The translations under genes and the position numbers were made by a program. A stretch of 53,290 nt of DNA. Source: a virus. Shown piece after piece: positions 1-20,380 of this stretch (positions are counted from its first letter, which is position 1; every line of letters starts with the position of its first letter). The DNA lies in the UHGV virus genome UHGV-0119950, one strand, 5' to 3'. The notes under the pieces were generated by a model. It searched no databases and was not told the origin of the DNA. It worked only from the letters and a program-made list of their open reading frames with translations.

Positions 1-50
1 AAGCGCAGGCGCAGCGATAAAGGAAAAAGATGACGCAGTAATTTATTCAT
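1..50 (-). CDS. phoQ: Sensor histidine kinase PhoQ, first 16 codons only (gene continues beyond window start)
   Basis: Minus strand reads ATGAATAAATTACTGCGTCATCTTTTTCCTTTATCGCTGCGCCTGCGC = [16 protein letters not shown], like the PhoQ N-terminus recalled from E. coli (MKKLLRLFFPLSLRVR). Its ATG overlaps the phoP stop (TAATG). Confidence 0.7.
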   Translation of the reverse strand, partial: MNKLLRHLFPLSLRLR

Positions 51-724
51 TAGCGCAGTTCGAACAGGTATCCCTGACCACGGACGGTGGTAATCACATC
101 ATCAGGATATCGCGCCTGAATTTTTTTGCGTAAGCGCCCCATTAATACATCAATGGTATGGCTTTCACGCAGTTCCGCATCCGGGTAGAGCTGTAGCATC
201 AACGAATCTTTGCTGACGACTTTGCCATTATTGCGGATCAGCGTTTCCATAATGGTGTATTCAAACGCCGTCAGTTTTATCACTTCATCATTTACGGACA
301 ATTCACGGCGGGAGAGATCCACCTGAAAAGGCGGAATAGAGATAACCTGCGAGGCCAGGCCGCTGTTGCGGCGCATTAACGCCTGCATACGCGCGACCAC
401 TTCTTCAATATGAAACGGTTTTGTCACGTAGTCGTCGGCGCCTGCGCTCAGCACTTCCACTTTATCCTGCCAGCCTTCACGGGCGGTTAATACCAGAACA
501 GGAAGGGAAACGTCATTGCTGCGCCAGCGGCGGATCAGCGAAAGCCCGTCTTCATCCGGGAGGCCTAAATCGACGATGGCGATGTCCGGCAGATGCTCGT
601 TAAGATAATAATCGGCTTCCTTTGCATCTTCTGCGTCATCAACCTGGTGCCCCAAATCCTGTAATTGAACCTTCAGGTGGTGGCGTAATAAGGCATTATC
701 TTCGACAACCAGTACGCGCATCAT
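50..724 (-). CDS. phoP: Response regulator PhoP (OmpR family)
   Basis: The 224-aa [26 protein letters not shown]... is near-identical over its full length to E. coli/Salmonella PhoP as remembered. Receiver domain (DLGLPDEDG) plus winged-helix C-terminus ([12 protein letters not shown]). SD GGGAGAAAAG lies upstream. Confidence 0.97.
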
Positions 725-794
725 CTTTTCTCCCTAAATTAACGGTATTAGTAGTTTAACGCTGATTCTGTGGATTGAAACCAGCGCTATGAAA

Positions 795-2081
795 TTAAAT
801 AACTTTTTTCATACTCCCTCGCCCGTGGGGGCGTCCTGGGGGCAGTGCTGTCGGCATCTGATTGTTCAGCATGTTGACCTGATCCTGGTTCATGTCATCA
901 ATCCACTTGGAGTAAACCTCGTACACCATACGCGCATCTTCATGTCCCATCTGGCTGGCAATGAACGACGGGTTCGCTCCGGCCATCAGCGTCCAGCAGG
1001 CGTATGTGTGGCGCGACTGATATGGATTGCGCTTACGTATACCTGAAAGTTTAGTCCCACGTTTCCAGCCATACGAAATCGAGTCCTTGGAAAAGTAACC
1101 GCCTTTCGTTGATGAGTATGTTGTCGGTGAAAAAACGAAGCGAAGATATTGCTGCTCAGTTTTTCCGATCTCACGATGATGAAACTGAATTTCCTGTTTT
1201 GGACTGTTCCCGGTGATTTCGTATTGCTCCAGCAGAGCATCATGAGCAGGTTGCAGCAACGTTATCGTCCTTATCCCGGCATCTGTTTTAGGGGGTACAA
1301 ATACTCGCTTGTTCGTCAAATTTCTGGATACGTGGATTTCACCTTTTACCAAATCAATATCTTCCCATGCCAGTGCGCATATCTCGCCCGGCCTCATCCC
1401 TGTATGTACCGCAATAATGATGATTAATGCCTGGCTACGGGGAAGGGCGGCTATCAGTGCCTGGTACTCATGAAGTAAAAGTGGGTCGGGATCATTTTTA
1501 GATAACTTGAGTCGCGACACTCCTTCATAAGGAGCATGCAATATAAACTGGCTTCGGTTTGCAAGCTTCAGCATTTCTGATAAAACAGCCATCTGTTTAT
1601 TGACTGTTGAGGGCGCTCGCCCATTTTTGATGCGGTTTGGTATTGAAGGGTTGAAAACTTCCCCGGTCAGGAGTTCTTTGCGGTAATTCAGAATATCTGC
1701 GTGCTGAATATCAACCAGGCGTGTGTTCTCGCCCACTACTCGTTTCAGGGTTTTAACGACTGATGTGATGGATAGTAAAGTGGCTTCAGATACCTCCAGT
1801 GACTTTGTGTCTGTAAAAAAATCACTCAGTTCTTTGAATGTAGAGATCCGTTTTGTGGACGAAAATTTCTTAAGAGCTTTTGATTCCGGGAAACGATCTG
1901 CGTAGTCGAACTTACCGAGTTGTATCTCACTCACAATTGCCGCGCGCAGATTGCCCGCTTTTTTAATGTTGCTACTGTTGACAACCCAACCCTGGAGAAC
2001 TTCGCGGCAACGAATGCCGCGATAGATAAATGTGATCCTGATTTTTCCGTTATGCAGTTCAACACCAGTCGGATATTTCAT
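795..2081 (-). CDS. int: Tyrosine recombinase, phage integrase
   Basis: 428 aa. N-terminal arm-binding type sequence (KYPTGVELHNGKIRITFIYRGIRCRE). Catalytic-domain motifs TGMRPGEICAL (Arg), SRHTYACW (HxxR), GHEDARMVYEVY (His...Tyr). Sits at the prophage edge next to xis. Confidence 0.93.
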   Translation of the reverse strand: MKYPTGVELHNGKIRITFIYRGIRCREVLQGWVVNSSNIKKAGNLRAAIVSEIQLGKFDYADRFPESKALKKFSSTKRISTFKELSDFFTDTKSLEVSEATLLSITSVVKTLKRVVGENTRLVDIQHADILNYRKELLTGEVFNPSIPNRIKNGRAPSTVNKQMAVLSEMLKLANRSQFILHAPYEGVSRLKLSKNDPDPLLLHEYQALIAALPRSQALIIIIAVHTGMRPGEICALAWEDIDLVKGEIHVSRNLTNKRVFVPPKTDAGIRTITLLQPAHDALLEQYEITGNSPKQEIQFHHREIGKTEQQYLRFVFSPTTYSSTKGGYFSKDSISYGWKRGTKLSGIRKRNPYQSRHTYACWTLMAGANPSFIASQMGHEDARMVYEVYSKWIDDMNQDQVNMLNNQMPTALPPGRPHGRGSMKKVI

Positions 2082-2296
2082 TAAGCATCCTGAACTAACT
2101 GATTAATCTTCGGGTAGTTGTACCAAAGCAGACCTTTAGCGTTGTCAGTCTGTCCAAGCGCAGTAAGGTGCTTGAAGTGAACACCTTCAACCCATAGCTT
2201 CAGTCGATAATTTTTAATCTGTCCTTCAGTAAGTCCTGTTCTTTCGGTAAGTCTGGACTCAACAACCCACTCTTCGTTAAAAATTACCTGTGACAT
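2081..2296 (-). CDS. xis: Excisionase-like small DNA-binding protein
   Basis: 71 aa. Its stop overlaps the int start by 1 nt (TAATG). Position and size are typical of Xis. Sequence (GVHFKH...WYNYPKINQ) resembles the DUF1233 excisionase-like family as remembered. Confidence 0.7.
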   Translation of the reverse strand: MSQVIFNEEWVVESRLTERTGLTEGQIKNYRLKLWVEGVHFKHLTALGQTDNAKGLLWYNYPKINQLVQDA

Positions 2297-2360
2297 GGTT
2301 CACCTCAGGTAACCGGCGCCAGTATAGATGCGCCGGTGTTGTGACATTGATAATTCGTTA

Positions 2361-2600
2361 TCAGGCAATCTGCCCTGGCAGTGCGCGCAGTCGGCGCATA
2401 CCTGTCATTGCGGTGGCGACATAGCTCTTATGTCGGTTAACAACTTCTACCGTCACCTTCACGCCGTCGACCGCCACGGTATAAGTGGTCTTTGTTTTCT
2501 GTCTGCCAAACTCCCCGTAAAGCTCAACATGTTTTGCCAGAGCAGCATCGCACGCCCTGCGCGCCAGCGGAGATTGCTTACTACGATTGATAAGGCGCAT
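2361..2600 (-). CDS. Hypothetical phage protein
   Basis: 79-aa ORF with SD AGGGGG upstream, same strand as the early-left operon. Confidence 0.55.
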   Translation of the reverse strand: MRLINRSKQSPLARRACDAALAKHVELYGEFGRQKTKTTYTVAVDGVKVTVEVVNRHKSYVATAMTGMRRLRALPGQIA

Positions 2601-2640
2601 ATAACCCCCTGTGACGGGAGGGCTGACCCTCCCGCCTCCC

Positions 2641-3750
2641 TTAGTTCACGTATTCCGGTTTCATGTCGTCAAGGGTGATGCGGAACTGGTCATACAGTTC
2701 TTCACCCAGATGACGTTTGGCAGCGCTGAGCGTATTTTCAGCTTTAGCGAACATCGCTGCGGCTTCCGGTTCGCTGGGATTTGGAAGTGAGTTGATCACA
2801 GCCTCGACCTTGTTCTGCGCATCGACCTGGTAATAACGTTTCACCGCCTTATTTTTCAGTTCGGTGAACAGCGCTGTGCCCAGCAACGCTTTCTGCGATT
2901 CGATATCCGCGCGGATAGCTTTGGCCTGGTCAACAGAGCTTGCTGTATCAATCCGGTCACGTAGATCGTCTGCAACGGCATCAACATTAGTTGCCGATTC
3001 CTGCGCGCTGGTCGTGGTGCTAACCTCGCCAGTGATTTCCTGTACGCTCATGCGCTGGACTGGCGCAGGGTTAATCTCGCGTTCTTCTCGCTGCTCAACT
3101 TCATCAGGGCTGTACACGCCGAGGATCACTTCCGGGCAGTACAGGCGAGCCCAATATTTAACGCCCAAATAGGCAATTTGCTGTTTAGGATTGGAAACCC
3201 ACAGCGGGGAATTGCGGGTAACAACGCCGGAGAGGTAAAGAGGTTCCCCCCAGGTGATTTCGGATTCACCGCGCAGGATTGCGCCAACCTGGACGAACAG
3301 GCCGATCTCGTCCTCATCCGTCCAGCCACGAACGCGTTCAGTGACGGTGTATTTGCCGTTTTTCCCGTTTTTATCGCGCGTAATTTCCTGTGTTCTGGTG
3401 CAGCGCTCCCAGTCACCTCCATAACGGTAATGAAAACGGCCATGAATGGCACTGGAACTGGCGATTACCGCGTTGACAAGTTGCGCCTCGTATCCAAGAA
3501 CACCGTTAACCAGATGCGTTTTTTGCGCCACCGCGTATGGGTTCATGCCCCACTGCATCGCCTGCATAACGATTGCCATGCAGTCTGCCGGTTTACCTGC
3601 CAGATGCGCCGGGACCGTCACCTGGGAGTCGGCCATCAGATTTGCGAATGCGGTTAACTGGCTCAGCGCCTGTACGTTAAAAATCGCGTTACTGGCTGAA
3701 ATGGTGTTTGGTGCCTGCTGTTCAGTGGTGACAATGCTGGTGTTTTCCAT
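2641..3750 (-). CDS. recT: RecT-family single-strand annealing recombinase
   Basis: Start chosen at MENTSIVTT (ATG 3750, SD AAGGGGGA). Lies downstream of and adjacent to recE. The central region (MQWGMNPYAVAQKTHLVNGVLGYEAQL) looks RecT-like from memory. Confidence 0.75.
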   Translation of the reverse strand: MENTSIVTTEQQAPNTISASNAIFNVQALSQLTAFANLMADSQVTVPAHLAGKPADCMAIVMQAMQWGMNPYAVAQKTHLVNGVLGYEAQLVNAVIASSSAIHGRFHYRYGGDWERCTRTQEITRDKNGKNGKYTVTERVRGWTDEDEIGLFVQVGAILRGESEITWGEPLYLSGVVTRNSPLWVSNPKQQIAYLGVKYWARLYCPEVILGVYSPDEVEQREEREINPAPVQRMSVQEITGEVSTTTSAQESATNVDAVADDLRDRIDTASSVDQAKAIRADIESQKALLGTALFTELKNKAVKRYYQVDAQNKVEAVINSLPNPSEPEAAAMFAKAENTLSAAKRHLGEELYDQFRITLDDMKPEYVN

Positions 3751-3760
3751 GATTTCCCCC

Positions 3761-6700
3761 TTATGCCTGTACGCGCAGCGCTTCAAGACGGCGCACATCA
3801 AAATCGTTGAGTTCTTCGGCGTAATCTTCGGTAATCGGCGCTGGCCATTCGCCAGTGTCGAACCCGTTCGCTATGGCGCGCATCGCTTTGCGGTATTCCA
3901 GCATGCCGAGTTCAAGCAGTTCTTCGGATGCCTCGATGATGGCGATCCAGTGGTAGTTCTCGTCTTTGTTGACGAATATCCAGAAAAACTGGTCCAGCGC
4001 TGCGGTTTCGCAGTACATGGCAGCGCTCAGGTGATAATCGCGCTCGATGATTTCCCGGTGCAGTTTGGCGCGTAGGCCTTCCTGCTTGATATTCCACATG
4101 CTGATAGTCTTCAGGTCAGCGCCGATGCGCAGGCCGCCCATGTCGATTTCAAGGTCTGGCCGCACGCGGATTTCCAGCCCGGTTTCCTCATCAATACCGA
4201 AATAGCTCACTTCTACGGCGCGGTTCGGATGCGTCAGCAGCTTCCCGGCGGTCGGGTGATTCAGCAGCGCTTTCTGGATGGCCTGCGCGGTGCTCAACTG
4301 CTGGCGGGTAACCAGAATTTTATCGCCGGGATTTTCTCGCCAAGCGTCAAGCAGCTCGTCGGCAAACACTGTTTCAGGTTTGACGGTTTTCACTGTCTGA
4401 ATCAGATCCGCTTTGGTGCCGGATACTTTCAACGGCTGTGGCTTCTGTGCTTCCTGTGCAACGAGATCAGGATTGATGATCGCCAGTTGCTCAAGCAGCG
4501 CGTCACGGCTTCCGCTGGTTTTCACCTGCGGCGGAAGGGTGGCGTTGTACTCTTTGATGCAGGCCTTCATTGCTGTGGCGGTATGCTTGGTTCCGTTCTC
4601 AATACGCTGGAACTCTTCAGGCAATTGCTCATATGATGCATACGATTCGTCAACGGATGCCCCAAGCGGTAACGGTGCGGGCAGGGTGGTGTTGTACTCT
4701 TCCAGTAGCGCTTTTATATCGTCGGCACTAAGCAGCGGCGGCAGGCTGGCGTTGTGCTCGTCGATAACCGCGCGGATCGTCGCTGTCGTCGTAAGCGCGC
4801 CTTCCGGGATTTCCGGTTCGATGCTGAACTCTTTTTCCAGTTGTTCAGGCTGTAACGCCAGCGCATGCACCAGGTTCCCCATATCCAGGACTTTGGTGCG
4901 TTCTTTCTGGATGGTTTTGGATACGTGGCGCGCCTCGAAATACATCAGCGATACCCGCGCATCTTTTACCATCGTCGAACTGATGCCATTCGCCGCGTGA
5001 TATACCTCGTTCGGTACGCCTTCATAACGCCCCGGCTCGAAGTATTCCGGCCACACTGGCGTTGGTTCTTCCTGTTGCGCTTCTGGCTCAGAATGGCTTG
5101 CAGAATCGTTGTTCTGGCTCACTTCCGACTGATTGTGGTCTACATCGGCTTGCTCGCCGGTATCTGCTTCTTCACCATTCCCCAAATCGCTTTCGCTTGT
5201 ACGCAGCGCATCACCAGTCTGTTTTTCATCACTGACAGTTTCTTGAACCTGCACATCGCTGGTGGTCTCCGCTTCCTGTTTTGTGCCATGAGTTGAGGAG
5301 TTCTGCATTAAAGCGGACACGTCGAAAATGTCGTCTGCAACTTTTTTCACCAGTTCAGGTTGCTCGGTTTGCTGGCTTGTCTCTGTCTTCACCCATTTCG
5401 GATCATTTGGGTCGCTGATACCCGGAACGAATTCACCGCGACCGGCGGCAAGCTGGCGTTCAACCTCTTCGCGGAGTAACTCAAGCGCAGAAGTGACCTT
5501 CTCGGGTGCCGGAGCCATCGGCATTGGCATTGATGAGCGACCGCAGGCGATATCAACGATCATTTCATCCGGGTGAGCGTGATCGGTTTCAGTCATGACA
5601 CGATTGAGATACTCGCGATGACGGAAAGGAGATTTAAACAGTTCCTCTGGCGTTGTTTTTACCGTAGCGACATTGCAGGCGCGGGAGTAATCCATCCCAC
5701 CAGGCATTTCTTCAAACAATTTGCAGGTCGCAATAAATTCATCGAGTACGTTATCTTCCCCTGAGCGGGAGAGATTCATAATGGCGTTGGCTTCAACATC
5801 GATCTCGAAGGAAGGGCTGTAAATATCGAACTCTTTGTTACGGGCGATCAGGCCAAGTGCTATTTCATATTCGAGCCCGGTTTTTGTCAGTGGAGTAAGA
5901 CGGTCAGTCTTATTACCGCCACCGGCGTTCGCGCCAGATGGTGTGCGATTAATTTCAGATACACGATTACCTTTGCACCACTCTTTAACGAGCAGCCCGC
6001 GATCAATATGAGGGGTATCGAACCATGTTTTCAGAAACTGGATAACGCTTGCCAGCTCAGGGATTTTGCCATCGGCAGGAAACACGCTCTTAACAGCATT
6101 TACCGCTTTATGGATATCGTGTTCAATGGCCTTTTTGAATGGTTCAACATTCTCAGCCGCAAGTAAAAGGTTCTGGACATATGAATTATCTGTGTCCATT
6201 TCCAGAGCGAGAATTGCTTTTTTCTGCTCTGCGTCGACATGATAGAGATACTCGCCATCGCCAATATGTTGAGCCAGAACACGATGACGGAAGGGCATTG
6301 TTGCCACAACGGTTAACTGAGGGTGTTCAGGTAGATCGCCATTGTCTTCAGTTGACGCCTGATCGTGCTGGATAATTTCGCCAGTTTCGGTATCGACAAC
6401 TTCTTCATTGCCAAAATCTTCCGTGTGATCTTCCAGCACTTCACCTGTTTCGGTATCAACACCATCAACGATACGCTGACGGGCGACGGCAACGGCCTCA
6501 GAAGAGGGCAACGTAACACCGGGGATCTGTACCCAGGTCATGTTGTCTTTGCCGAGTTGGTAGAAATCGCAGAACGTTAAGCTGAGTTCGCCTTCTGGCG
6601 GAAGCTCGTTAACGACGGGGAAATTAGTGGCAACAGCTTTAAAATAATCTTTCAGCTTTGCGCCGGATTTAATCAGGAGATAATCCAGTGTGGCATTTGC

Positions 6701-6796
6701 CGCTTCAAAATCATCGCTGCACCAGAGAACTGCATCTTTATGGCCAGATGATTTCTTTGCTTTGCGGACTAAAAATACAGGATTAGTTCCACTCAT
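3761..6796 (-). CDS. recE: Exodeoxyribonuclease VIII (RecE-like), 1011 aa
   Basis: From the ATG at 6796 (SD GAGGA), the N-terminus MSGTNPVFLVRKAKKSSGHKDAVLWCSDDFEAANATLDYLLIKSG...YFKAVATNFPVVNELP parallels Rac RecE as remembered. Acidic central region, C-terminal nuclease domain. The 69 upstream codons of the track ORF were rejected. Confidence 0.88.
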   Translation of the reverse strand: MSGTNPVFLVRKAKKSSGHKDAVLWCSDDFEAANATLDYLLIKSGAKLKDYFKAVATNFPVVNELPPEGELSLTFCDFYQLGKDNMTWVQIPGVTLPSSEAVAVARQRIVDGVDTETGEVLEDHTEDFGNEEVVDTETGEIIQHDQASTEDNGDLPEHPQLTVVATMPFRHRVLAQHIGDGEYLYHVDAEQKKAILALEMDTDNSYVQNLLLAAENVEPFKKAIEHDIHKAVNAVKSVFPADGKIPELASVIQFLKTWFDTPHIDRGLLVKEWCKGNRVSEINRTPSGANAGGGNKTDRLTPLTKTGLEYEIALGLIARNKEFDIYSPSFEIDVEANAIMNLSRSGEDNVLDEFIATCKLFEEMPGGMDYSRACNVATVKTTPEELFKSPFRHREYLNRVMTETDHAHPDEMIVDIACGRSSMPMPMAPAPEKVTSALELLREEVERQLAAGRGEFVPGISDPNDPKWVKTETSQQTEQPELVKKVADDIFDVSALMQNSSTHGTKQEAETTSDVQVQETVSDEKQTGDALRTSESDLGNGEEADTGEQADVDHNQSEVSQNNDSASHSEPEAQQEEPTPVWPEYFEPGRYEGVPNEVYHAANGISSTMVKDARVSLMYFEARHVSKTIQKERTKVLDMGNLVHALALQPEQLEKEFSIEPEIPEGALTTTATIRAVIDEHNASLPPLLSADDIKALLEEYNTTLPAPLPLGASVDESYASYEQLPEEFQRIENGTKHTATAMKACIKEYNATLPPQVKTSGSRDALLEQLAIINPDLVAQEAQKPQPLKVSGTKADLIQTVKTVKPETVFADELLDAWRENPGDKILVTRQQLSTAQAIQKALLNHPTAGKLLTHPNRAVEVSYFGIDEETGLEIRVRPDLEIDMGGLRIGADLKTISMWNIKQEGLRAKLHREIIERDYHLSAAMYCETAALDQFFWIFVNKDENYHWIAIIEASEELLELGMLEYRKAMRAIANGFDTGEWPAPITEDYAEELNDFDVRRLEALRVQA

Positions 6797-6920
6797 TATT
6801 TGATCCTCAATTCGTGTAGAATGGAGGCGCCTTAATGGCACCTCGGTTTTACCAGGTGATGTCCGGTGTAACTTTGGTCGGTGCCACCGGACGGAAGGCC
6901 CACCCTGTGTGGGCTTTCGC

Positions 6921-7208
6921 TTAATGAACAGTTCTGAAAACTTTTTCTGAGTAATCGAGTTTGTAGCTGCGGTAGTTGCCAAAACCGGCGTTATCGCCAT
7001 CACTTACTTTCACGGACAACATTGAAATTGCCTCTACAGCACAAAGAGGACAGTCGAACTTGCCGAATACATAGCCACCGTCAAGAATGACCGTGACCGC
7101 GCCCGTTTCGGCTGAATGAATAACGCCTGATACTTTCTTCTCGCAGTTGAATACAGCCAATTCTTTATTCACTGCTTTCAGGTTCATTTCGATTTTTGCG
7201 ATTTCCAT
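6921..7208 (-). CDS. Hypothetical phage protein
   Basis: 95-aa ORF, SD GGAGA 8 nt upstream, in line with the early-left operon. Confidence 0.65.
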   Translation of the reverse strand: MEIAKIEMNLKAVNKELAVFNCEKKVSGVIHSAETGAVTVILDGGYVFGKFDCPLCAVEAISMLSVKVSDGDNAGFGNYRSYKLDYSEKVFRTVH

Positions 7209-7295
7209 AAAACTTCTCCGGTTGTTAAATTCAGGGTGTAAGAATCCGCGCCAAATTTATGGCGAATTTTTTATTTCATATTTCAGGACTGCTGG

Positions 7296-7454
7296 TTAAC
7301 TTTCGTGCGCCATCTGATCGTATTCAGCGCATTGCTTTGAGCAGTATTCTTTTTCTTTGTTGGCAAGCCGGTTGCCATTGCGATAGAAAAGGATGCTCTT
7401 TACTTCTTTGCCTTCTTCAACGGGTTTGCGGCAGTAACCGCATTCTTTCTGCAT
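7296..7454 (-). CDS. Small Cys-rich (zinc-ribbon-like) protein, 52 aa, below the ORF-track cutoff
   Basis: Hand translation: MQKECGYCRKPVEEGKEVKSILFYRNGNRLANKEKEYCSKQCAEYDQMAHES. CxxC...CxxxC pattern. Strong SD GAGGAGGGG upstream. Starts 10 nt after the stop of the upstream gene. Confidence 0.6.
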   Translation of the reverse strand: MQKECGYCRKPVEEGKEVKSILFYRNGNRLANKEKEYCSKQCAEYDQMAHES

Positions 7455-7463
7455 TACCCCTCC

Positions 7464-7649
7464 TCAGATGCTTGCTGGCAGCTCTCCGTTGTGAATGATT
7501 CCCTCAACAGGCCAGCACTCACCATTAACCTTTTGCTCGACAGCTGCGGCCTGGCATTCCTGCTGGTTGTCATATACACCGAGAATCACATCCTGAAAGT
7601 CACCGTTGGTCATTGCGACCGTTAATACCAGTGCGAATAGTTCCCCCAT
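7464..7649 (-). CDS. Hypothetical small phage protein
   Basis: 61-aa ORF. Its ATG overlaps the upstream stop (ATGA), indicating translational coupling. Confidence 0.6.
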   Translation of the reverse strand: MGELFALVLTVAMTNGDFQDVILGVYDNQQECQAAAVEQKVNGECWPVEGIIHNGELPASI

Positions 7650-7777
7650 CAGTGAAGAGTCCTCCCGATTGCAGCAGCATAAATACGTTTTGCTTCTTCC
7701 CAGTCTTTAATGCTGTGGTGAGCCACTGCGAAGGATGCCTTGCGCTGTGCCTCCCGGACTTGCTGCTTGTTAATCAT
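7649..7777 (-). CDS. Hypothetical 42-aa protein (MINKQQVREAQRK...)
   Basis: Internal ATG of the 101-aa track ORF. It overlaps the stop of the upstream 90-aa gene (ATGATTAA), and its own stop overlaps the next start. The longer version would clash with the better upstream gene. Confidence 0.45.
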   Translation of the reverse strand: MINKQQVREAQRKASFAVAHHSIKDWEEAKRIYAAAIGRTLH

Positions 7778-8042
7778 CGTTATCCTCCAGGTGCCCGTTA
7801 TCGCGAAGCCAGCTAATGACCTCGTCAGGAGAAAGACGATCCAGAATTTCCGGTAACTTGCTGTTATTGTCAGCCCAGTCGATGTAATCCGGCAGGTCGA
7901 TAGCGGCGAACAGCACATCGCTTTCGATTTCTTCCAGCACGTCATCCACTTCAACGCCGCGAATTTCAGTGTTCACAAAATCGCGATAACCGCTGGTTGA
8001 AACGTCAACTCCCTGCGCCTTGAGATCTAAATCAATTTTCAT
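7770..8042 (-). CDS. Hypothetical acidic phage protein, 90 aa
   Basis: Start taken at MKIDLDLKAQG (ATG 8042, SD AGAGGGTGAAA). First gene of the coupled leftward chain. Confidence 0.6.
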   Translation of the reverse strand: MKIDLDLKAQGVDVSTSGYRDFVNTEIRGVEVDDVLEEIESDVLFAAIDLPDYIDWADNNSKLPEILDRLSPDEVISWLRDNGHLEDNDD

Positions 8043-8280
8043 TTTCACCCTCTGCTTGCCGTTGTCGCCCGGCTGGCGGAACGTTTGATACCTGCTGCGC
8101 GTTAACTCATCCACCTCATCACCATCTTCATACGCCTGGTGCGGCTACTTCGTGGGCGTCCTGCCTGGGTGGTCGTGTTGCTGTGATATTGATTAAATCA
8201 CTGGTTTATAGTTGTGTCAACTTTGAATTGATGTTTGGTGTAAATTTTAGGTTTATATGTTGGGAGAGGGAGCGTGTGTT

Positions 8281-8526
8281 ATGCTCACAAAAACATCAAT
8301 TGGCGAGGGCTGGGTGATGGATTACGAAGAACTGGCGCAACTGCGCTATCAGGAAATGTGCCGGATTGTGGGGGATGTCGTTTTTGCGATGGTGGCTGAA
8401 GGGCATGAAACCAAAAGAGTGGCTATAGCTGACGTGATACGAACGGAGATATCGAAGGGGCTGGATAAGTGGGATGCTGACCAGATTCAGGTTATGGAAC
8501 TGGCAGTGAAGTTTCTGGAAGAGTAG
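8281..8526 (+). CDS. Hypothetical protein, 81 aa, lone plus-strand gene in the early-left/immunity gap
   Basis: ATG at 8281 preceded by GGGAGAGGGAG. Ends 5 nt before a bidirectional terminator. Confidence 0.55.
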   Translation: MLTKTSIGEGWVMDYEELAQLRYQEMCRIVGDVVFAMVAEGHETKRVAIADVIRTEISKGLDKWDADQIQVMELAVKFLEE

Positions 8527-8530
8527 GGCA

Positions 8531-8565
8531 ATAAAAAACCCGGCTCGGTGGCCGGGTGTTTTTAG
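8531..8565. terminator. Bidirectional intrinsic terminator
   Basis: Stem CCCGGC (8539-8544) / GCCGGG (8551-8556). A T-run follows on the plus strand (TGTTTTT) and TTTTTTATT on the minus strand. Sits between convergent genes. Confidence 0.8.
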
Positions 8566-8954
8566 TTACACGCGAATTTTATACCATCTAGTGTTGTGTT
8601 TTTAAGGATGTCTTCGGCATAAAATTTGAAGTAAACCCTCATCAAAGATGAAAAATACCAAGTATATTCCTTTAAAAAATCCTCATTGAGATTTTCGCTT
8701 TTTGGATAAGAGAAAATCATTCTAATGTCGATTTTTAGAGAAAAATCTGGTTTTTCACTGCCTTTCCTGAACCCTTGAGCGATGGGGCTTGCTGAAACTT
8801 TAATTGATGACATTGATGGATCGCCACCACCGACTTCAAAATCTAAGGCGCCATATACAACCTTGATCGTGCCCTCACCAGGTGTAAGCATGGTTTGATT
8901 GAACTCCACGTTTAGAATCGCAGATTCAACCATGTTGATATCGTTAGGCAACAT
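8562..8954 (-). CDS. Hypothetical 130-aa protein, possible SecB-like chaperone (remote, by-eye similarity)
   Basis: Third gene of the coupled cassette. FSLKIDIRMIFSY and LKEYTWYFSSLMRVYFKFYAEDILKNTTLDGIKF line up with SecB AFLCEVQQGGIFSI and [36 protein letters not shown] (E. coli SecB from memory). AT-rich. Confidence 0.6.
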   Translation of the reverse strand: MLPNDINMVESAILNVEFNQTMLTPGEGTIKVVYGALDFEVGGGDPSMSSIKVSASPIAQGFRKGSEKPDFSLKIDIRMIFSYPKSENLNEDFLKEYTWYFSSLMRVYFKFYAEDILKNTTLDGIKFACN

Positions 8955-9363
8955 TTATCTCATAATCCCTGTTTTGAGGCTTAATGGTAATCTTGATGAC
9001 TGGGCTTGGTTCGTCCATGAAACTATTTAAATTCATAACGTAGTGCTTATGAGCAGGTATAACAGGATGAGAAACATCACATCCATTCTTCAGGATTACT
9101 ACTTTTGCTTCGGCACCTAGAGCGTAGGAAATATCGGAGAGGGTTTTTAGTGTCATGTTCCTAGTTCCATCTAGCAACTGAGAAACATGCGAAGCCGACT
9201 TGCCAAGTTTTTTAGCAAGTTCACGCTTAGTTATACCTGTATCCTGCATAGCTAAAAGGATGTCTTCTGTAGTATTGAACACTAATCGTTCGGAAGCCAT
9301 CTCTCTATCACTAATGTATGGAAAACCAAAAATTTCTTCTGCGAAAGTCTTATCAGTAGTCAT
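8944..9363 (-). CDS. XRE-family HTH protein, 139 aa, candidate antitoxin with C-terminal extension
   Basis: Central HTH ITKRELAKKLGKSASHVSQLLDGTRNMTLKTLSDISYALG. About 45 aa follow the HTH domain. 11-nt overlaps with both neighbours. Confidence 0.8.
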   Translation of the reverse strand: MTTDKTFAEEIFGFPYISDREMASERLVFNTTEDILLAMQDTGITKRELAKKLGKSASHVSQLLDGTRNMTLKTLSDISYALGAEAKVVILKNGCDVSHPVIPAHKHYVMNLNSFMDEPSPVIKITIKPQNRDYEINVA

Positions 9364-9781
9364 CTAAACCTCTCTCGATTCTCTCCCAGTTGTTACAAAC
9401 TTTTTGGACATCAGAATCGCTTAAATCATCAAAATCTTTGTAGATGTAATGACTCATAAAATAAGTCATTGATACTCTCTCCGACTCCCAGTAGTACCCT
9501 CGAATAGGTATCTTCTTTATAGCCCAGAAATTTTTTTTAGGTTTGCCATTGTAAGAAGGCAGTATTCCTTCCTTTCTGACGCTGAGATCTGGAGTTCTTT
9601 TACCTGATGCCAGGCGCTCTATTTGTAGTCTAAGCTTGACCATCATGGCTTTTTGCTTCTTAGCAGGAGTAACACTCAGTATCGCATCAGCTAGAGTTTT
9701 TAGCGCTCCATTACAATGGGTTACAGTGAAGCAAGCGCCCTTAAAAGTATGTTGAACCATCCACTTATCCATAGTTAACAT
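9353..9781 (-). CDS. Hypothetical 142-aa protein, candidate RelE/HigB (Gp49/DUF891-like) toxin
   Basis: The pattern KLRLQIERLASG...FWAIKKIPIRGYYWES...YFMSHYIYKDFDDLSDSDVQKV resembles the HigB/Gp49 layout (…YRxxY…hHaFxKKxxxTPxxDI…). Lies upstream of the HTH gene, the HigBA order. Start codon uncertain (ATG 9781, 9772 or 9760). Confidence 0.6.
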   Translation of the reverse strand: MLTMDKWMVQHTFKGACFTVTHCNGALKTLADAILSVTPAKKQKAMMVKLRLQIERLASGKRTPDLSVRKEGILPSYNGKPKKNFWAIKKIPIRGYYWESERVSMTYFMSHYIYKDFDDLSDSDVQKVCNNWERIERGLDDY

Positions 9782-9875
9782 ATATATTAACTCACAATTT
9801 GCAAGTGAGCCACCTTCATCTTATAGAGATAATCCGAAAAGCATGATGGTTAGCAATTCATGTCCTTATCAACTC

Positions 9876-10031
9876 TCAAAGGGACATACCGATAACGGCA
9901 TTAACCACACTTGACGCCATAAACACGCCGCCAACGATGAAGCTGGCCTGGTTCTTCCTGGTAGCGCCAAGAGTCAACAGAACCACTGAAAGGGCAAAGA
10001 AAGGTATCGCGATTATGCTGAACGTGTTCAT
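9876..10031 (-). CDS. Small hydrophobic protein, 51 aa (two predicted TM segments), below the ORF-track cutoff
   Basis: Hand translation: MNTFSIIAIPFFALSVVLLTLGATRKNQASFIVGGVFMASSVVNAVIGMSL. SD GAGG 5 nt upstream. Starts 12 nt after the repressor stop. Confidence 0.55.
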   Translation of the reverse strand: MNTFSIIAIPFFALSVVLLTLGATRKNQASFIVGGVFMASSVVNAVIGMSL

Positions 10032-10043
10032 GTTGACCTCAAG

Positions 10044-10433
10044 TTATTGCGATTCTCCGTCACCCTTAATCCGTCGCCCCATGTACTTCGCGTACAGCTC
10101 GTCGAGCTCCTTCAGTCGCAGAGATACGATCCGCAACATGTTCTGCTGCTCTTCTTCCGGCAGCTGGCGATAGAGTTCCAGCAGGCGCTGCTCGTCAGGC
10201 TTCATACCATCTTTCTCGCCGACATCTTCCCCGAGCAGCCAGGCGACCGAAACACCAACAGCATCGGCTATAGCCAGTGCTGATTTTTTGCTAATAACGC
10301 CTTTTTTAAACCAGCTATTGACCGCCTGAGGCGAGACTCCGGCTATTCGCGCCATATCTGCTTTGGTAATGCCTCTGGCATAGACCTCGTTGAGTCGCGC
10401 TATCAATGCTTTGTTGGGTTCTTCTTTTCTCAT
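10044..10433 (-). CDS. Prophage repressor (CI-like, HTH_XRE) lacking an S24/LexA-type cleavage domain
   Basis: 129 aa from the ATG at 10433. HTH ITKADMARIAGVSPQAVNSWFKKGVISKKSALAIADAVGVSVAWLL. The short helical C-terminus has no Ala-Gly/Ser-Lys peptidase motifs. Divergent from the cro-like gene. Confidence 0.8.
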   Translation of the reverse strand: MRKEEPNKALIARLNEVYARGITKADMARIAGVSPQAVNSWFKKGVISKKSALAIADAVGVSVAWLLGEDVGEKDGMKPDEQRLLELYRQLPEEEQQNMLRIVSLRLKELDELYAKYMGRRIKGDGESQ

Positions 10434-10534
10434 TCTCTCATTGTAAATGGTTAGTTTACACACTCAATAAATTGAATATTGATTGAAATATAAATCTGTG
10501 GTTTACTTTCTTCGTTGATAGTTAGGAGAAGAAA
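10434..10534. promoter_or_regulatory. Divergent immunity promoter/operator region
   Basis: AT-rich 101-nt gap between the repressor and the cro-like gene. Inverted repeats TGTAAA-N7-TTTACA (10442-10460) and TCAATA-N7-TATTGA (10464-10482). Confidence 0.6.
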
Positions 10535-10768
10535 ATGACAGCACTTGATAAAGCAATTAAGGCCGCTGGTTCAGCGAGAAAGCTAAGCATGGCACTTGGT
10601 GTAACCAGTATGTCAATTAGCCATTGGAAACATCGCGACAGAGGCATTGTGCCGCCAGATTACATATTAAAAATTCACAGCATAACCGGTGTTACTCCCC
10701 ACGAATTGCGCCCTGATCTGTATCCGAACCCAACGGATGGATTACCGGCGCAGGAAGCGAGGGCGTAA
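10535..10768 (+). CDS. Cro-like / YdaS-family HTH regulator
   Basis: 77 aa. HTH SARKLSMALGVTSMSISHWKHRDRGIVPPDY. SD AGGAGAAG. First gene of the rightward early operon. Confidence 0.8.
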   Translation: MTALDKAIKAAGSARKLSMALGVTSMSISHWKHRDRGIVPPDYILKIHSITGVTPHELRPDLYPNPTDGLPAQEARA

Positions 10769-10770
10769 CC

Positions 10771-11313
10771 GTGCATTCAATTTCATTTCAACAAAATACC
10801 GGGTTTCCTCCAGCCACGATGATAAATCGCAATCAGCCTGATCCGGCGGATAAGCATGACCAGATTCGGGCTGCCGTTCGTGCGTGGTCGGCATCGCTGG
10901 ACAACCAGGACGTAGTCGCCGGGATCATCGTTGAAGAATGGGAACGGCAGGGCGGCGCCGGGCTGGATTTTCCTGACGACCTGAGCCGTAAGCGGCAGAA
11001 GCTTTTCCGCTGGCTGGACAGCGACACCGGATATGCGCGCGAAAACATCCGCCAGCTGACTCCGGCAATCCTGGCTGTTATGCCGCTGGAATTTCGTGGG
11101 CGCCTTATCGGACAGGATTGTTTCATGACGCGTTTTGCAGCGATGGAGAAGGAAATCAGCGAGGCGAAACAGGCCGTAATGTTGAATGCGCCAAAGCATC
11201 AACTGGTGAAAGAGGTCAGGGAAGGGATTGAGCATCTGCTGAATATGTTGCCGGATGATGCTGTTGTTCAGGTTCTGAGTGGTATCGCGGCCATAGCGCC
11301 GGGTGTCATGTGA
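10771..11313 (+). CDS. YdaT-like (CII-type) regulatory protein
   Basis: IIVEEWERQGGAGLDFP...RQKLFRWLDSDT...IRQLTPAILAVMPLEFRGRL parallels E. coli YdaT as remembered. Start uncertain (GTG 10771 or ATG 10819). Confidence 0.7.
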   Translation: MHSISFQQNTGFPPATMINRNQPDPADKHDQIRAAVRAWSASLDNQDVVAGIIVEEWERQGGAGLDFPDDLSRKRQKLFRWLDSDTGYARENIRQLTPAILAVMPLEFRGRLIGQDCFMTRFAAMEKEISEAKQAVMLNAPKHQLVKEVREGIEHLLNMLPDDAVVQVLSGIAAIAPGVM

Positions 11314-11322
11314 GGTTACCAG

Positions 11323-11576
11323 ATGAATCATTTGGAGTTCATAGAAAAGCATGTCCGGGAAGAGTTGATCCGACAGGGCTTCACCGTAGCGGTGGCTCAG
11401 GGGGGGCATTTCAGGCCGTCGATATGTACAAGCGAATGAGCCAGGCAAGCAGAAAGGGGAGGATTTTTGATGATGTTTTACGTCACGCGAAATTGTGGGC
11501 AGAAAAACAAACATTACCGGCTGATCGGTTTGATTCAAAACGGGCTAAACGGGGCAGGCAACAGGGCTTGTTCTGA
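11323..11576 (+). other. Small gene split over two frames at a G7 tract (38-codon frame plus downstream frame ending at 11576); frameshifted gene, or two or three small ORFs
   Basis: ATG 11323 gives the protein-like MNHLEFIEKHVREELIRQGFTVAVAQGG, then stops at 11437. The -1 frame continues from the G-run (11400-11406) as AFQAVDMYKRMSQASRKGRIFDDVLRHAKLWAEKQ... The track ORF from GTG 11310 has a junk-like N-terminus. Confidence 0.4.
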
Positions 11577-11695
11577 AAGGGTGAAGACCGCTGTGCTCGA
11601 ACACAGACGGCCTTCGGGTGCAATTAGTTGCGTACTCATTGCGAGGTCATTATGACAAAGAGTTTTTCAAAACACCAGGCAAGGGAGGCATAGCT

Positions 11696-12694
11696 ATGTC
11701 GAATGTCGCCTACGCCGATTTTGCGGCGCGTACCGCCGTCAGGAGCAACCGGATGGAAAACCAGAAGACCGGATTCATCCCGTTGTACCGGAGTGTACTC
11801 AAGCAGCCCTGGTCAGAAGATGTTTACCTGCGTACGTTGTGGGATAACCTGCTTTTGGGCGCTGCCAGCCAGCCATACACAGCGAGCTTTAAAGGTCGCC
11901 AATGGCCGCTACAAACCGGACAACTGGTGACCACGGCGGCCGATCTGGGCCTGAAACTACGTGACAGAAAAGGCAACCCAACAAGCCGTGATGCTGTTGA
12001 GAGAATGCTGACATTTTTTGTGCGCGAAGGGATGATTTCCATTGAGGGGGAACGGCAAAGAGGGCGTGTGATCACGATCTCAAATTATGCCGAATATGCT
12101 CAAAAAATGGACAATTTACCCGCACAAACTTCCGCACATACCAGCGCACATATGACCGCACATGGCGAAGCCAGTAACGGCGCGGGTTTGGCGGCAGGTA
12201 GCGCACATGAAAGCGCACATACATCCGCACAAACAAGCGCACATCATGAACAATATATATTAAATACTAACGTATTTAATGTACGTCAGAGAATTTCCAA
12301 AGTTGTTCCTGATGCAGCAGTCCAGACTCCGAAAGGTGACAAGTGGGGGACATCTGACGATCTCCGTTGCGCAGAGTGGATGCTGGCACTGCGTGACATC
12401 ACCAAACCATCCCTGAAAAAACCGAACATGGCTGGCTGGGCGAATGACATACGCCTGATGCGCCAACTGGACGGACGCACCCACAAAGAGATTTGTGAGT
12501 TGTTCAGATGGGCCTGCAAAGACTCGTTCTGGTACAAAAATATTCTCTCTCCCGCAAAGCTCCGCGCCAAGTGGGACACGTTAACCCTTCACCGTGAAGA
12601 CACTACCCGCAAGCCACGCGCAGATGTCAGCGCAAGCAAATCCGAAACTGGCCCGCACTGGAACAGTGCTGAAGCATGGGAGAAATTTTTATGA
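11696..12694 (+). CDS. Replication initiator (lambda O-like role) with internal origin
   Basis: 332 aa from the ATG at 11696 (SD GGGAGG). N-terminal winged-helix-like region. The central TSAH-repeat segment is encoded by the iterons. Followed by a P-like gene with ATGA coupling. Confidence 0.75.
   Translation: MSNVAYADFAARTAVRSNRMENQKTGFIPLYRSVLKQPWSEDVYLRTLWDNLLLGAASQPYTASFKGRQWPLQTGQLVTTAADLGLKLRDRKGNPTSRDAVERMLTFFVREGMISIEGERQRGRVITISNYAEYAQKMDNLPAQTSAHTSAHMTAHGEASNGAGLAAGSAHESAHTSAQTSAHHEQYILNTNVFNVRQRISKVVPDAAVQTPKGDKWGTSDDLRCAEWMLALRDITKPSLKKPNMAGWANDIRLMRQLDGRTHKEICELFRWACKDSFWYKNILSPAKLRAKWDTLTLHREDTTRKPRADVSASKSETGPHWNSAEAWEKFL
12121..12243. repeat. Iteron array: 8 copies of CGCACA in two blocks of four with exact 12-nt spacing, followed by an AT-rich stretch (12244-12285); candidate ori
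   Basis: CGCACA occurs at 12121, 12133, 12145, 12157 and at 12202, 12214, 12226, 12238. Then ATGAACAATATATATTAAATACTAACGTATTTAATGTA. Same logic as lambda ori inside gene O. Confidence 0.7.
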
Positions 12695-13386: not shown

Positions 13387-13402
13387 CGGGAGGAGAATAA
13401 CG

Positions 13403-15067: not shown

Positions 15068-15068
15068 T

Positions 15069-15254: not shown

Positions 15255-15257
15255 CCC

Positions 15258-19160: not shown

Positions 19161-19173
19161 TGTATAATCCCTC

Positions 19174-19840: not shown

Positions 19841-19872
19841 GATGATTGTCCATTTTGTTTGTGTAAGTGTAT

Positions 19873-20229: not shown

Positions 20230-20248
20230 CTGAACATGGAATGAACTC

Positions 20249-20362: not shown

Positions 20363-20380
20363 TACGCAATGGAGGCCACT

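What the first reader, a model, noticed from the sequence alone, without database searches (positions are those of the whole stretch)
725..797. Prophage end abuts the phoP promoter: integrase stop is 70 nt from the phoP start codon
Read on the phoP strand, the upstream sequence is GTTATTTAATTTCATAGCGCTGGTTTCAATCCACAGAATCAGCGTTAAACTACTAATACCGTTAATTTAGGGAGAAAAGATGATG.

I compared this with the E. coli/Salmonella phoP P1 region as I remember it: CTGGTTTATTAACTGTTTATCCCCAAAGCACCATAATCAACGCTAGACTG...GGGAGAAGAGATG. Similarity runs from the -10 element (CAGAAT against CATAAT) down to the start codon. Upstream of about position 771, only a single GGTTT(C) half-site is present. The direct-repeat PhoP box (T/G)GTTTA-N5-(T/G)GTTTA is absent, and the int coding sequence begins at 795.

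The attachment site therefore seems to fall inside the autoregulated phoP promoter. Lysogeny may alter PhoP/PhoQ autoregulation, unless the phage end supplies a functional substitute.
Basis: partly seen in the sequence, partly recalled or inferred. Interest (0 to 1): 0.5.

Follow-up and report, generated by a model that had tools for sequence, protein, structure and literature searches.

The report
Prophage splits the phoP promoter
A 52.7-kb temperate phage sits exactly on the -10/start-site of the promoter through which the virulence regulator PhoP activates its own gene in Citrobacter koseri, so the PhoP-binding site is left 52.7 kb away and lysogens probably express PhoP/PhoQ without the normal positive feedback.

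Summary
The window is Citrobacter koseri. phoP (50-724, -) lies 70 nt downstream of the stop codon of a 428-aa lambda-type integrase (795-2081, -).

Prophage-free C. koseri strains with an identical PhoP carry a textbook promoter: GGTTTA-N5-TGTTTA, then 12 nt, then CATAAT. In the window, identity to that allele stops at position 771.

A 15-bp core, ACA-N-AATCAGCGTTA (757-771), covers the -10 hexamer and the inferred start site. It recurs at the far prophage end, 191 nt past the window, where the PhoP box and purB remain. An intact attP was found in two metagenome contigs. Arm-type repeats (GCCCCYA, 2 + 4 copies) flank the core.

Every close relative of this integrase examined sits at the same spot: 7 species representatives with intact int, 9 further loci with int remnants, and 30 of 30 viral contigs. 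The hosts are Citrobacter, Enterobacter, Lelliottia and Scandinavium. Three species representatives have lost the PhoP box altogether.

No PhoP box lies within 870 nt upstream of phoP in the window. The phage arm supplies a conserved -35-like TTCATA at 17 bp plus an A-tract. A PhoP-independent hybrid promoter is therefore the likeliest outcome, but this is inferred, not shown. I found no published description.

The parts
50..724 (-). phoP coding sequence (224 aa; alternative start at 721)
   Evidence: ORF list. 100% identical to the PhoP of ten C. koseri loci. Pfam Response_reg and Trans_reg_C are on record for the identical product.
725..756 (-). Host-derived phoP 5' leader, with Shine-Dalgarno GGGAG at 734..730
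   Evidence: Invariant between lysogens and prophage-free C. koseri in alignment A1.
757..771 (-). 15-bp attachment core ACAGAATCAGCGTTA (int-proximal copy). It contains the phoP P1 -10 hexamer and the inferred transcription start.
   Evidence: Occurs once in the window. The identical 15-mer lies at the purB-side junction in L011, which matches the last 11,316 nt of the window 100%. Core variants ACACAAT.../ACATAAT... occur at both junctions of L002 and L004 and in attP of L067 and L068.
765..770 (-). -10 hexamer CAGAAT (CATAAT in the empty site, CACAAT in other C. koseri lysogens)
   Evidence: Alignments A1 and A3. Position relative to the box follows the architecture I definition in PMC3335776.
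772..794 (-). Phage-derived non-coding part of the int-proximal att arm. It replaces the PhoP box and includes the lone GGTTTC (784..779).
   Evidence: Diverges completely from the empty-site sequence. Present in free attP contigs.
788..793 (-). -35-like hexamer TTCATA, 17 bp upstream of the -10 (candidate hybrid promoter)
   Evidence: TCAT is invariant and the spacing fixed in 18 distinct junction sequences, while the spacer varies. It gives the best sigma-70 PWM score in the 150 nt upstream of phoP: 8.3 bits, against 3.95 bits for the same -10 in the empty site. It falls below the scan tool's 9/12 threshold.
798..812 (-). A/T-rich tract ATGAAAAAAGTTATT (last int codons), a possible UP-like element at about -40 to -55
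   Evidence: Read directly from the sequence. Retained in the most decayed remnants L031-L033. Function is inferred.
795..2081 (-). Tyrosine integrase, 428 aa
   Evidence: Pfam Arm-DNA-bind_2 (2e-25) and Phage_integrase (2e-17). Closest deposited phage integrase is Rac IntR at about 50% aa.
826..843 (-). Two arm-type repeats GCCCCCA (826-832 and 837-843), inside the int 3' end, at 61 and 72 nt from the core
   Evidence: The motif occurs only 7 times in the 53-kb window on both strands. Four more copies cluster at +125 to +173 in the int-distal arm (L011).
2081..2296 (-). Excisionase-like gene
   Evidence: Pfam DUF1233 'putative excisionase', 2e-23.
757..53290 (.). Prophage body (lambdoid), 52,724 bp core to core. 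The window lacks only its last 191 nt plus the second core.
   Evidence: Gene content includes RecT/RecE, replication O, terminase, portal, capsid, tape measure, GpJ, tailspike, acyltransferase and UmuDC. The second core lies at window-equivalent 53481-53495.

Best explanation
A 52.7-kb lambdoid prophage integrated by Int-mediated site-specific recombination. The crossover lies in a 15-bp core, ACA-N-AATCAGCGTTA, which is the -10 hexamer and start-site region of the PhoP-activated phoP P1 promoter of Citrobacter koseri.

Integration cuts the promoter in two. The PhoP box, everything upstream of it and one copy of the core stay next to purB. By analogy with E. coli, that includes the constitutive P2. 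phoP keeps only the other core copy (a -10 altered to CAGAAT), the start site and its leader. Upstream it now has the 3' end of int.

These steps are shown.

Inferred: the int-proximal arm brings a -35-like TTCATA at 17 bp and an A-tract. With the retained -10 this forms a hybrid sigma-70 promoter that needs no PhoP. phoPQ would then stay expressed but lose its positive feedback, meaning no transcription surge in low Mg2+. Read-through from int may add to expression.

The phage family uses this conserved promoter as its attB across several genera. Decayed remnants have made the rewiring permanent in some lineages.
For: STRUCTURE
- Empty sites with identical PhoP carry GGTTTACGAAATGTTTA, then 12 nt, then CATAAT. 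Lysogens diverge upstream of the core.
- The purB-side junction shows PhoP box + core + phage DNA in L011 (100% identical to the window end), L002 and L004.
- Intact attP occurs in two metagenome contigs. One is a 91%-identical relative in circular topology: int end, core, then umuC.
- Int has arm-binding and catalytic domains, and an excisionase-like gene lies next to it. There are 2 + 4 arm-type repeats.
- Site specificity: all 7 GTDB species representatives with an 84-88% identical int have phoP 70 nt after the stop. Nine further loci with int remnants also sit next to phoP. So do 30 of 30 IMG/VR matches.

LOSS OF AUTOREGULATION
- No PhoP box with up to 2 mismatches lies within 870 nt upstream.
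- The phoP promoter is architecture I. The box must be direct and 12 nt from the -10, and function depends on orientation and distance (PMC3335776).

SUBSTITUTE PROMOTER
- TCAT and the 17-bp spacing are invariant while the spacer varies.
- The PWM gains 4.4 bits over the empty site.
- L031, L032 and L033 have no PhoP box and no second core between purB and phoP. They have no co-oriented upstream gene (seen directly in L032/L033). They keep the phage arm only to about 22-30 nt upstream of the -35-like hexamer, and phoP is intact.
- In L022 the displaced box and -10 are degenerate.
- phoP is intact in 13 of the 14 non-koseri loci beside an int or int remnant (the exception is L023) and 100% identical in all C. 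koseri lysogens. In Salmonella, deleting the PhoP box abolishes growth in low Mg2+ (PMC2650801). A common insertion must therefore be compensated somehow.
Against: - There are no expression data of any kind.
- The candidate promoter scores only at the 84th percentile of random 150-nt tiles of the window. It fails the scan tool's 9/12 rule in this window.
- Its -10 is weakened here (CAGAAT) and is poor in L033 (CCGAAT).
- In intact phages, conservation of the arm could reflect Int, IHF or Xis binding rather than promoter function.
- The remnant argument rests on about three lineages. Those were found with a peptide-pattern scan that biases which remnants are seen.
- The start site and the position of P2 are taken from Salmonella/E. 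coli work, not mapped in C. koseri.
Confidence: 0.6

Rival explanations
1. phoPQ in the lysogen is transcribed mainly by read-through from the prophage early-left operon (recE-recT-xis-int). PhoP/PhoQ levels would then follow the prophage state: low in stable lysogeny and a burst on induction. No junction promoter would be needed.
For: int and phoP are co-oriented and 70 nt apart. No terminator-like hairpin lies between them. The whole block 795-7003 is on the same strand.
Against: Early-left operons are repressed in lysogens (general lambdoid knowledge). No sigma-70-like promoter was found in 700-3900. Remnants that have lost int and the upstream operon keep an intact phoP, so a local promoter must exist there (L031-L033).
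Confidence: 0.17
2. Autoregulation is preserved. PhoP still activates phoP through a non-canonical site in phage DNA. Candidates are the GGTTTC half-site at 784..779 and the reverse-oriented box-like TGTTTATTGACTGTTGA inside int (1594-1610).
For: A 1-mismatch box lies at 1594-1610. The same motif lies 160-180 nt from phoP in remnants L031-L033 and L022. Reverse-oriented boxes do activate some promoters (PMC3335776).
Against: GGTTTC lies 6 nt from the -10, half a helical turn out of register with an architecture I proximal half-site, and it has no partner. The int box is 870 nt upstream here. Known reverse boxes act 30-58 nt from the -10. The motif is int coding sequence (STVNKQ). Its presence in remnants is partly an ascertainment effect, because the scan used the peptide TVNKQMAV.
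Confidence: 0.08
3. The insertion is simply damaging. Lysogens are PhoP/PhoQ hypomorphs, and the phage pays this cost or benefits from a low-PhoP host. The phage-derived upstream sequence has no promoter role.
For: The weak PWM percentile and the degraded -10 (CAGAAT) in this strain. In Salmonella, loss of the PhoP box is strongly deleterious only under low Mg2+ (PMC2650801), so it could be tolerated in some niches.
Against: About 8 of 21 C. koseri contigs examined are occupied. Occupied or remnant sites occur in species representatives of four genera. phoP stays intact and highly conserved behind remnants that lack any PhoP box. That argues for continued expression and selection.
Confidence: 0.14
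4. There is no insertion. The arrangement would be ancestral, or an assembly chimera.
For: None found.
Against: Empty and occupied alleles coexist in one species with identical flanks. There is a core duplication and an observed attP. The same junction occurs in dozens of independent assemblies.
Confidence: 0.01

Closest known systems
Lambda-type attP/attB recombination (tyrosine integrase with arm-type and core-type sites, plus excisionase)
   Same: Int with an N-terminal arm-binding domain and a catalytic domain, with an xis-like gene next to it. attP spans roughly 250 bp and has clustered arm repeats on both sides of a short core. The core is duplicated at the prophage ends.
   Different: The int-proximal arm sites lie inside the int coding sequence. 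The core is a promoter -10/+1 rather than an intergenic spacer or tRNA. The Int sequence is only about 50% identical to its nearest deposited relative.
Rac prophage integrase IntR of E. coli (attB in ttcA, from my own knowledge)
   Same: Closest deposited phage integrase, at about 50% aa over 97% of its length. Same neighbourhood of xis (DUF1233), recT and recE.
   Different: A different target. None of 5,426 complete E. coli genomes has this int next to phoP. The E. coli equivalent of the core lacks one base (CATAATC-GCGTTA).
e14 / phage 21 integration into icd, and phages integrating into tRNA 3' ends, where the phage carries a replacement for the displaced gene end (from my own knowledge)
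   Same: A lambdoid element targets a highly conserved chromosomal sequence (icd lies only about 5 kb away). The phage end appears to keep the target gene working.
   Different: Here the displaced part is 5' regulatory DNA, not 3' coding sequence. The phage arm is not homologous to what it replaces, since it has no PhoP box. Gene expression may be kept, but the regulatory logic (feedback) is not.
Regulatory-switch prophages ('active lysogeny', e.g. Listeria phi10403S in comK; from my own knowledge)
   Same: A prophage inserted in a key regulator's gene or control region. Excision would restore the wild-type promoter precisely, because the core is conserved.
   Different: There is no evidence here for conditional, non-lytic excision. 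The target gene is not interrupted; only its promoter is re-wired.
Natural cis-regulatory rewiring of phoP in Yersinia (PhoP box moved upstream of y1795; PMC2650801)
   Same: The canonical box immediately upstream of phoP is absent in a natural lineage.
   Different: Yersinia keeps autoregulation through a relocated box. Here the box is moved 52.7 kb away by a mobile element, and in some lineages it is deleted or degenerate.

Membership tests
Lambda-type tyrosine-integrase prophage with att sites | Tyrosine recombinase catalytic domain | tested here: met
   PF00589, E = 1.6e-17, residues 204-391.
Lambda-type tyrosine-integrase prophage with att sites | N-terminal arm-type DNA-binding domain and clustered arm-type repeats in attP | tested here: met
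   PF12167, E = 2.2e-25. GCCCCYA occurs twice at -72 and -61 and four times at +125 to +167 relative to the core. There are only 7 copies in the whole 53-kb window.
Lambda-type tyrosine-integrase prophage with att sites | Identical short core at both prophage ends, present once in the empty site | tested here: met
   ACAGAATCAGCGTTA lies at window 757-771 and at the purB side of L011, which is 100% identical to the window end. There is a single copy in empty sites L001, L008 and L010. The second copy itself lies 191 nt outside the window.
Lambda-type tyrosine-integrase prophage with att sites | An attP that joins the two prophage ends in a non-integrated genome | tested here: met
   L068 and L067. 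No deposited phage or IMG/VR contig carries it.
Lambda-type tyrosine-integrase prophage with att sites | Int-catalysed integration and excision at this core | not testable with these tools
   Needs an in vivo or in vitro recombination assay. Natural empty/occupied polymorphism is indirect support.
PhoP-activated architecture I promoter (phoP P1) | Direct-repeat PhoP box (T/G)GTTTA-N5-(T/G)GTTTA in direct orientation | tested here: not met
   Absent upstream of phoP in the window, with no hit at up to 2 mismatches between 725 and 1593. Present in the empty-site allele and at the purB-side junction.
PhoP-activated architecture I promoter (phoP P1) | Box located 12 nt upstream of the -10 hexamer | tested here: not met
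   In the window, the corresponding positions read TTTAAT-TTCAT-AGCGCT (read from the sequence). The empty site has exactly 12 nt. The definition is from PMC3335776.
PhoP-activated architecture I promoter (phoP P1) | -10 hexamer and start site upstream of phoP | tested here: inconclusive
   The hexamer is retained as CAGAAT; A at position 2 and T at position 6 are kept. The start site has not been mapped in this species.
Constitutive sigma-70 promoter (proposed hybrid) | -35 and -10 hexamers at 16-18 bp with adequate consensus match | tested here: inconclusive
   TTCATA-17-CAGAAT matches 8 of 12 positions. That is below the tool's 9/12 rule. It scores 8.3 bits on my PWM, the 84th percentile of background. 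Relatives with CATAAT reach 9 of 12.
Constitutive sigma-70 promoter (proposed hybrid) | Transcription initiation independent of PhoP | not testable with these tools
   Needs 5' RACE or a reporter assay.
Regulatory-switch prophage (active lysogeny) | Reversible, non-lytic excision that restores target function under defined conditions | not tested
   No data bear on this. Precise excision would restore P1, because the core matches attB at 14 of 15 positions.

The most novel reading that the evidence does not exclude
Integration may be a two-way promoter swap.

(i) phoPQ is handed a phage-borne, PhoP-independent promoter. That removes the positive feedback held to be a conserved core feature of the enterobacterial PhoP regulon. 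In some Enterobacter, Scandinavium and Citrobacter lineages the change is permanent, because decayed remnants have lost the PhoP box.

(ii) The intact PhoP-activated P1 left at the purB side now fires into the int-distal end of the prophage. Different variants of the phage carry co-oriented surface-polysaccharide-modifying cargo there: Acyl_transf_3 in L002, Bro-N + GT25 in L067, and Acyl_transf_3 behind an antisense umuDC in the window. Lysogenic-conversion genes would then respond to Mg2+ and antimicrobial peptides.
Probability: 0.15. Interest if true: 0.8.

Novelty: new variant of a known kind. Interest (0 to 1): 0.6.

Why it matters
PhoP/PhoQ positive autoregulation is a textbook feedback loop. 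It has been reported as conserved across Enterobacteriaceae. In Salmonella it is required for growth in low Mg2+ and for full virulence (PMC2650801; Shin 2006 as cited in PMC4778762).

Here a natural mobile element removes the cis-element of that loop. It does so in a polymorphic fashion within one neonatal-meningitis pathogen: about 8 of 21 C. koseri contigs sampled are occupied. The same event recurs in the Citrobacter freundii and Enterobacter cloacae complexes, where PhoPQ controls polymyxin heteroresistance.

This provides natural lysogen/non-lysogen comparisons, made isogenic by curing, for testing what the feedback is for. It predicts strain-to-strain differences in Mg2+ and antimicrobial-peptide responses. 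It also shows a phage using a promoter -10/+1 as attB while apparently supplying replacement promoter parts.

Tried and rejected
- Looked for the second att junction inside the window. It is not there: the window ends 191 nt short. It was recovered through the exact UmuC protein.
- Searched IMG/VR for a free attP with two patterns and found nothing. A third pattern returned only integrated junctions. The single metagenome scan then found two attP contigs.
- Searched deposited phages by DNA and by protein. No close relative of the integrase turned up, the best being Rac IntR at 50%.
- Consensus promoter and terminator scans of the junction, of int-xis-recT and of the purB-side arm gave no promoter calls. 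They gave no terminator between int and phoP or in the purB-side arm.
- Tested the idea that the GGTTTC half-site or TATTTA-N5-ATAGCG could be a PhoP box. Rejected on mismatch count and register (and direct reading).
- Considered that the int-internal box-like motif kept in remnants shows selection for restored autoregulation. Not adopted, for three reasons: ascertainment bias of the peptide scan, a distance outside known functional ranges, and an extra mismatch in L032.
- Kato 1999, which mapped E. coli P1 and P2, is not held in the library. The position of P2 is therefore taken indirectly from PMC3750022.
- Four literature searches for a prophage at purB-phoP found nothing relevant.
Full report
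WHAT IS AT THE COORDINATES

On the minus strand the window carries phoP (50-724, 224 aa). Seventy nucleotides upstream lies the TAA stop (795-797) of a 428-aa ORF (795-2081). That ORF has an Arm-DNA-bind_2 domain and a Phage_integrase catalytic domain. The overlapping upstream ORF (2081-2296) is a DUF1233 putative excisionase.

RecT and RecE-like genes follow, then replication, a DNA methylase, terminase, portal, capsid, tape measure, GpJ and tailspike. At the right end are an Acyl_transf_3 gene and umuDC.

HOST AND EMPTY SITE

A look-up of the exact PhoP protein returned contigs that fall into two classes. L001, L008 and L010 have purB, 170 bp, then phoP. Seven other loci have phage genes or remnants between the two.

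L008 comes from AP023452, which is Citrobacter koseri MPUCK001 (PMC7729419). The host part of the window (1-756) is 99.3-99.7% identical to these loci, against 81-86% to other genera. The window is therefore C. koseri.

The empty site reads CC-GGTTTA-CGAAA-TGTTTA-TCCCCGCCGCAA-CATAAT-CAGCGTTAAACT...GGGAG...ATG. This is a perfect PhoP box in direct orientation, 12 nt from the -10. That matches the 'architecture I' definition of the phoP promoter (PMC3335776) and the layout in E. coli CE10.

Lysogens are identical to the empty site from the phoP ATG up to window position 771, except for one base at 768. Upstream of 771 they are unrelated to it. E. coli homology independently stops at 773.

THE OTHER JUNCTION AND THE CORE

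The window ends just after umuC. A look-up of the exact UmuC protein gave L011, whose first 11,316 nt are 100% identical to the last 11,316 nt of the window.

Beyond the window end L011 continues for 190 nt of phage DNA. Read toward purB, it then has the same 15-mer ACAGAATCAGCGTTA, then CCCCGCCGAA, the PhoP box, and purB. The remnant-bearing loci L002 and L004 show the same structure.

The prophage is therefore bounded by a 15-bp direct repeat, ACA-N-AATCAGCGTTA. It occupies window 757-771 and window-equivalent 53481-53495, giving 52,724 bp core to core. The core contains the P1 -10 hexamer and, by homology, the transcription start.

N is T in empty sites, C in most C. koseri lysogens, and G at both ends of this prophage.

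attP

The int-proximal arm carries two GCCCCCA repeats inside the int 3' end (826-843). The int-distal arm carries four GCCCC(C/T)A repeats at 125-173 nt from the core. Only five other copies occur in the whole window. This is typical arm-type site architecture for an integrase with an arm-binding domain.

IMG/VR and deposited phages gave no free attP. The metagenome scan found two.
- L068 joins the int 3' end and core directly to the int-distal arm, umuC/umuD and tail genes of a 91%-identical phage. This is the circular or excised topology.
- L067 has a full int (80% nt identity), then attP (ACATAATCAGCGTTA-GACTG), then Bro-N, a family-25 glycosyltransferase and a tail fibre.

The attP is thus observed, not only reconstructed.

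SITE SPECIFICITY AND SPREAD

It found full-length relatives (84-88% aa) in:
- Citrobacter werkmanii, C. braakii, C. pasteurii and C. portucalensis;
- Enterobacter mori and Enterobacter genomosp. O;
- Lelliottia wanjuensis.

In all seven, phoP begins 70 nt after the int stop.

Int fragments also lie next to phoP in C. youngae, C. meridianamericanus, Citrobacter sp. ANG330, Enterobacter sp. ECC-175, 'E. cloacae' M-7 and two Scandinavium MAGs. Thirty of thirty IMG/VR matches to the arm-plus-core pattern are followed by phoP. More distant Int relatives (Photobacterium, Proteus, Sodalis) are not next to phoP.

No complete E. coli genome has the junction. The E. coli counterpart of the core lacks one base.

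Within C. koseri, about 13 of the 21 contigs accounted for are empty and 8 are occupied. This was not a random sample.

WHAT IS LOST

According to PMC3335776, 52 nt upstream and 5 nt downstream of the P1 start suffice for Mg2+- and PhoP-dependent transcription. The box works only at defined orientation and distance. In the lysogen only about -13 to +5 of that unit remains in front of phoP.

No PhoP box with up to 2 mismatches lies between phoP and 1593 on either strand. The lone GGTTTC is 6 nt from the -10 and out of register.

In E. coli the constitutive P2 has its -35 and upstream region beyond the PhoP box (PMC3750022). P2 should therefore be displaced too; this is an inference for C. koseri.

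In Salmonella, deleting the PhoP box prevents growth in low Mg2+. Autoregulation is described as a conserved core feature of the regulon (PMC2650801).

WHAT MAY REPLACE IT

The phage-derived segment next to the core reads AAAAAAGTTATTTAA-TTTCATAGCGCTGGTTTCAATCC. With the retained -10 it gives TTCATA-17 bp-CA(G/C/T)AAT, preceded by an A/T tract.

Across 18 distinct junction sequences, TCAT and the 17-bp spacing are invariant while the spacer varies. A crude sigma-70 weight matrix, with frequencies taken from memory of published compilations, ranks this as the best candidate in the 150 nt upstream of phoP. It scores 8.3-9.6 bits, against 3.95 bits for the same -10 in the empty site. That is only the 84th-94th percentile of background tiles, and the tool's 9/12 rule is not met in this window.

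The strongest indirect evidence comes from decayed remnants. In L031 ('E. cloacae' M-7) and in L032/L033 (Scandinavium), the 0.7-0.9-kb purB-phoP interval has no PhoP box and no second core. In L032/L033 the gene seen directly upstream of phoP lies on the opposite strand, so read-through is not available there. Phage DNA next to phoP survives only to about 22-30 nt upstream of the -35-like hexamer. Yet phoP is intact.

In L022 (C. meridianamericanus) the displaced box and -10 at the purB side have degenerated to GTTTTATTAAATGGTTA...CATGCT. That is the expected fate of a promoter that no longer drives anything under selection.

These lineages must transcribe phoP from the phage-derived segment. 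The type-strain E. cloacae promoter is canonical (bioRxiv 10.1101/516872), so this is lineage-specific.

ALTERNATIVES

- Read-through from int is possible. The two genes are co-oriented and no terminator lies between them. It cannot explain the remnants, however.
- A cryptic PhoP site is unlikely on sequence grounds.
- Hypomorphy is possible for this particular strain, whose -10 is weakened.
- An artefact is excluded.

KNOWN OR NEW

The mechanics are ordinary lambda-type integration. The nearest deposited integrase is Rac IntR at 50% identity. Phages that repair the gene they integrate into (icd, tRNAs) are well known, as are regulatory-switch prophages; this comparison is from my own knowledge.

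What is different is the target and its consequence. The target is the -10/+1 of the autoregulated promoter of a master virulence and envelope regulator. The consequence is that the activator site is physically separated from its gene, while non-homologous phage DNA apparently supplies core-promoter parts.

Four full-text searches found no description of a prophage between purB and phoP.

I rate it a new variant of a known kind. The structural conclusion is near certain. The regulatory consequence is a well-motivated, directly testable inference.

Noticed in passing
window 1594-1610 (+); L031 3010-3026, L032 3004-3020, L033 3004-3020, L022 3220-3236: A PhoP-box-like TGTTTATTGACTGTTGA (1 mismatch) lies inside int codons STVNKQ, on the strand opposite to phoP. 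In decayed remnants the only int piece left (residues ~155-190) carries it. An internal deletion places it 160-180 nt from the phoP ATG in L031-L033 (about 450 nt in L022). This may be chance plus ascertainment, because the scan peptide was TVNKQMAV.
   Followed up: partly
window, whole: Matches to the PhoP-box pattern with up to 2 mismatches are about 2.3-fold enriched in the prophage: 25 observed against 10.75 +/- 3.6 expected, and 0 of 100 shuffles reach 25. Unexplained.
   Followed up: no
window-equivalent 53481-53560 (L011 11440-11560); window 50177-53240: The displaced but intact PhoP box, -10 and start site at the purB side point into the prophage's int-distal end. In the window this is antisense to umuC/umuD and then sense to the Acyl_transf_3 gene (51262..50177). 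In L002 an unrelated Acyl_transf_3 gene lies about 400 nt downstream and co-oriented. In L067 Bro-N and a GT25 glycosyltransferase are co-oriented. This could be PhoP-controlled cargo.
   Followed up: partly
window 50177-51262 (-): The acyltransferase-3 gene has about 36-40% G+C, against about 50% for the prophage. It is a typical recently acquired surface-modification moron. It shares only the family, not sequence, with the acyltransferase at the same position in L002.
   Followed up: partly
window 51544-53240 (+): A umuD/umuC (Peptidase_S24 + IMS) error-prone polymerase operon is carried as prophage cargo, immediately inside the int-distal att arm.
   Followed up: no
L011 11521-11530 versus L001 5945-5955: The purB-side junction of this prophage lineage differs from empty sites at two bases just at or upstream of the core: GCCGAAACAGAAT against GCCGCAACATAAT. 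The G in the -10 matches the phage copy. The C>A change matches neither partner.
   Followed up: no
L009 5870-5905: One C. koseri locus has three instead of two GCCCCCAGGAC arm-type repeats in the int 3' end (an 11-bp unit expansion). Different phage genes lie upstream (DUF551, DinI, RusA, antiterminator).
   Followed up: no
L023 about 4140-4160 (C. youngae ATCC 29220): phoP behind an int remnant has a frameshift in an A-run near codon 200. This may be a homopolymer sequencing error in an old assembly rather than a real pseudogene.
   Followed up: partly
L036 1113-1200 (E. coli CE10): The E. coli counterpart of the core lacks one base (CATAATC-GCGTTA). This may explain why none of 5,426 complete E. 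coli genomes carries this phage at phoP.
   Followed up: partly
window 17004-19160 (+): A 718-aa prophage ORF has a C-5 cytosine DNA methylase domain only in its C-terminal part. The N-terminal ~600 residues have no Pfam match.
   Followed up: no
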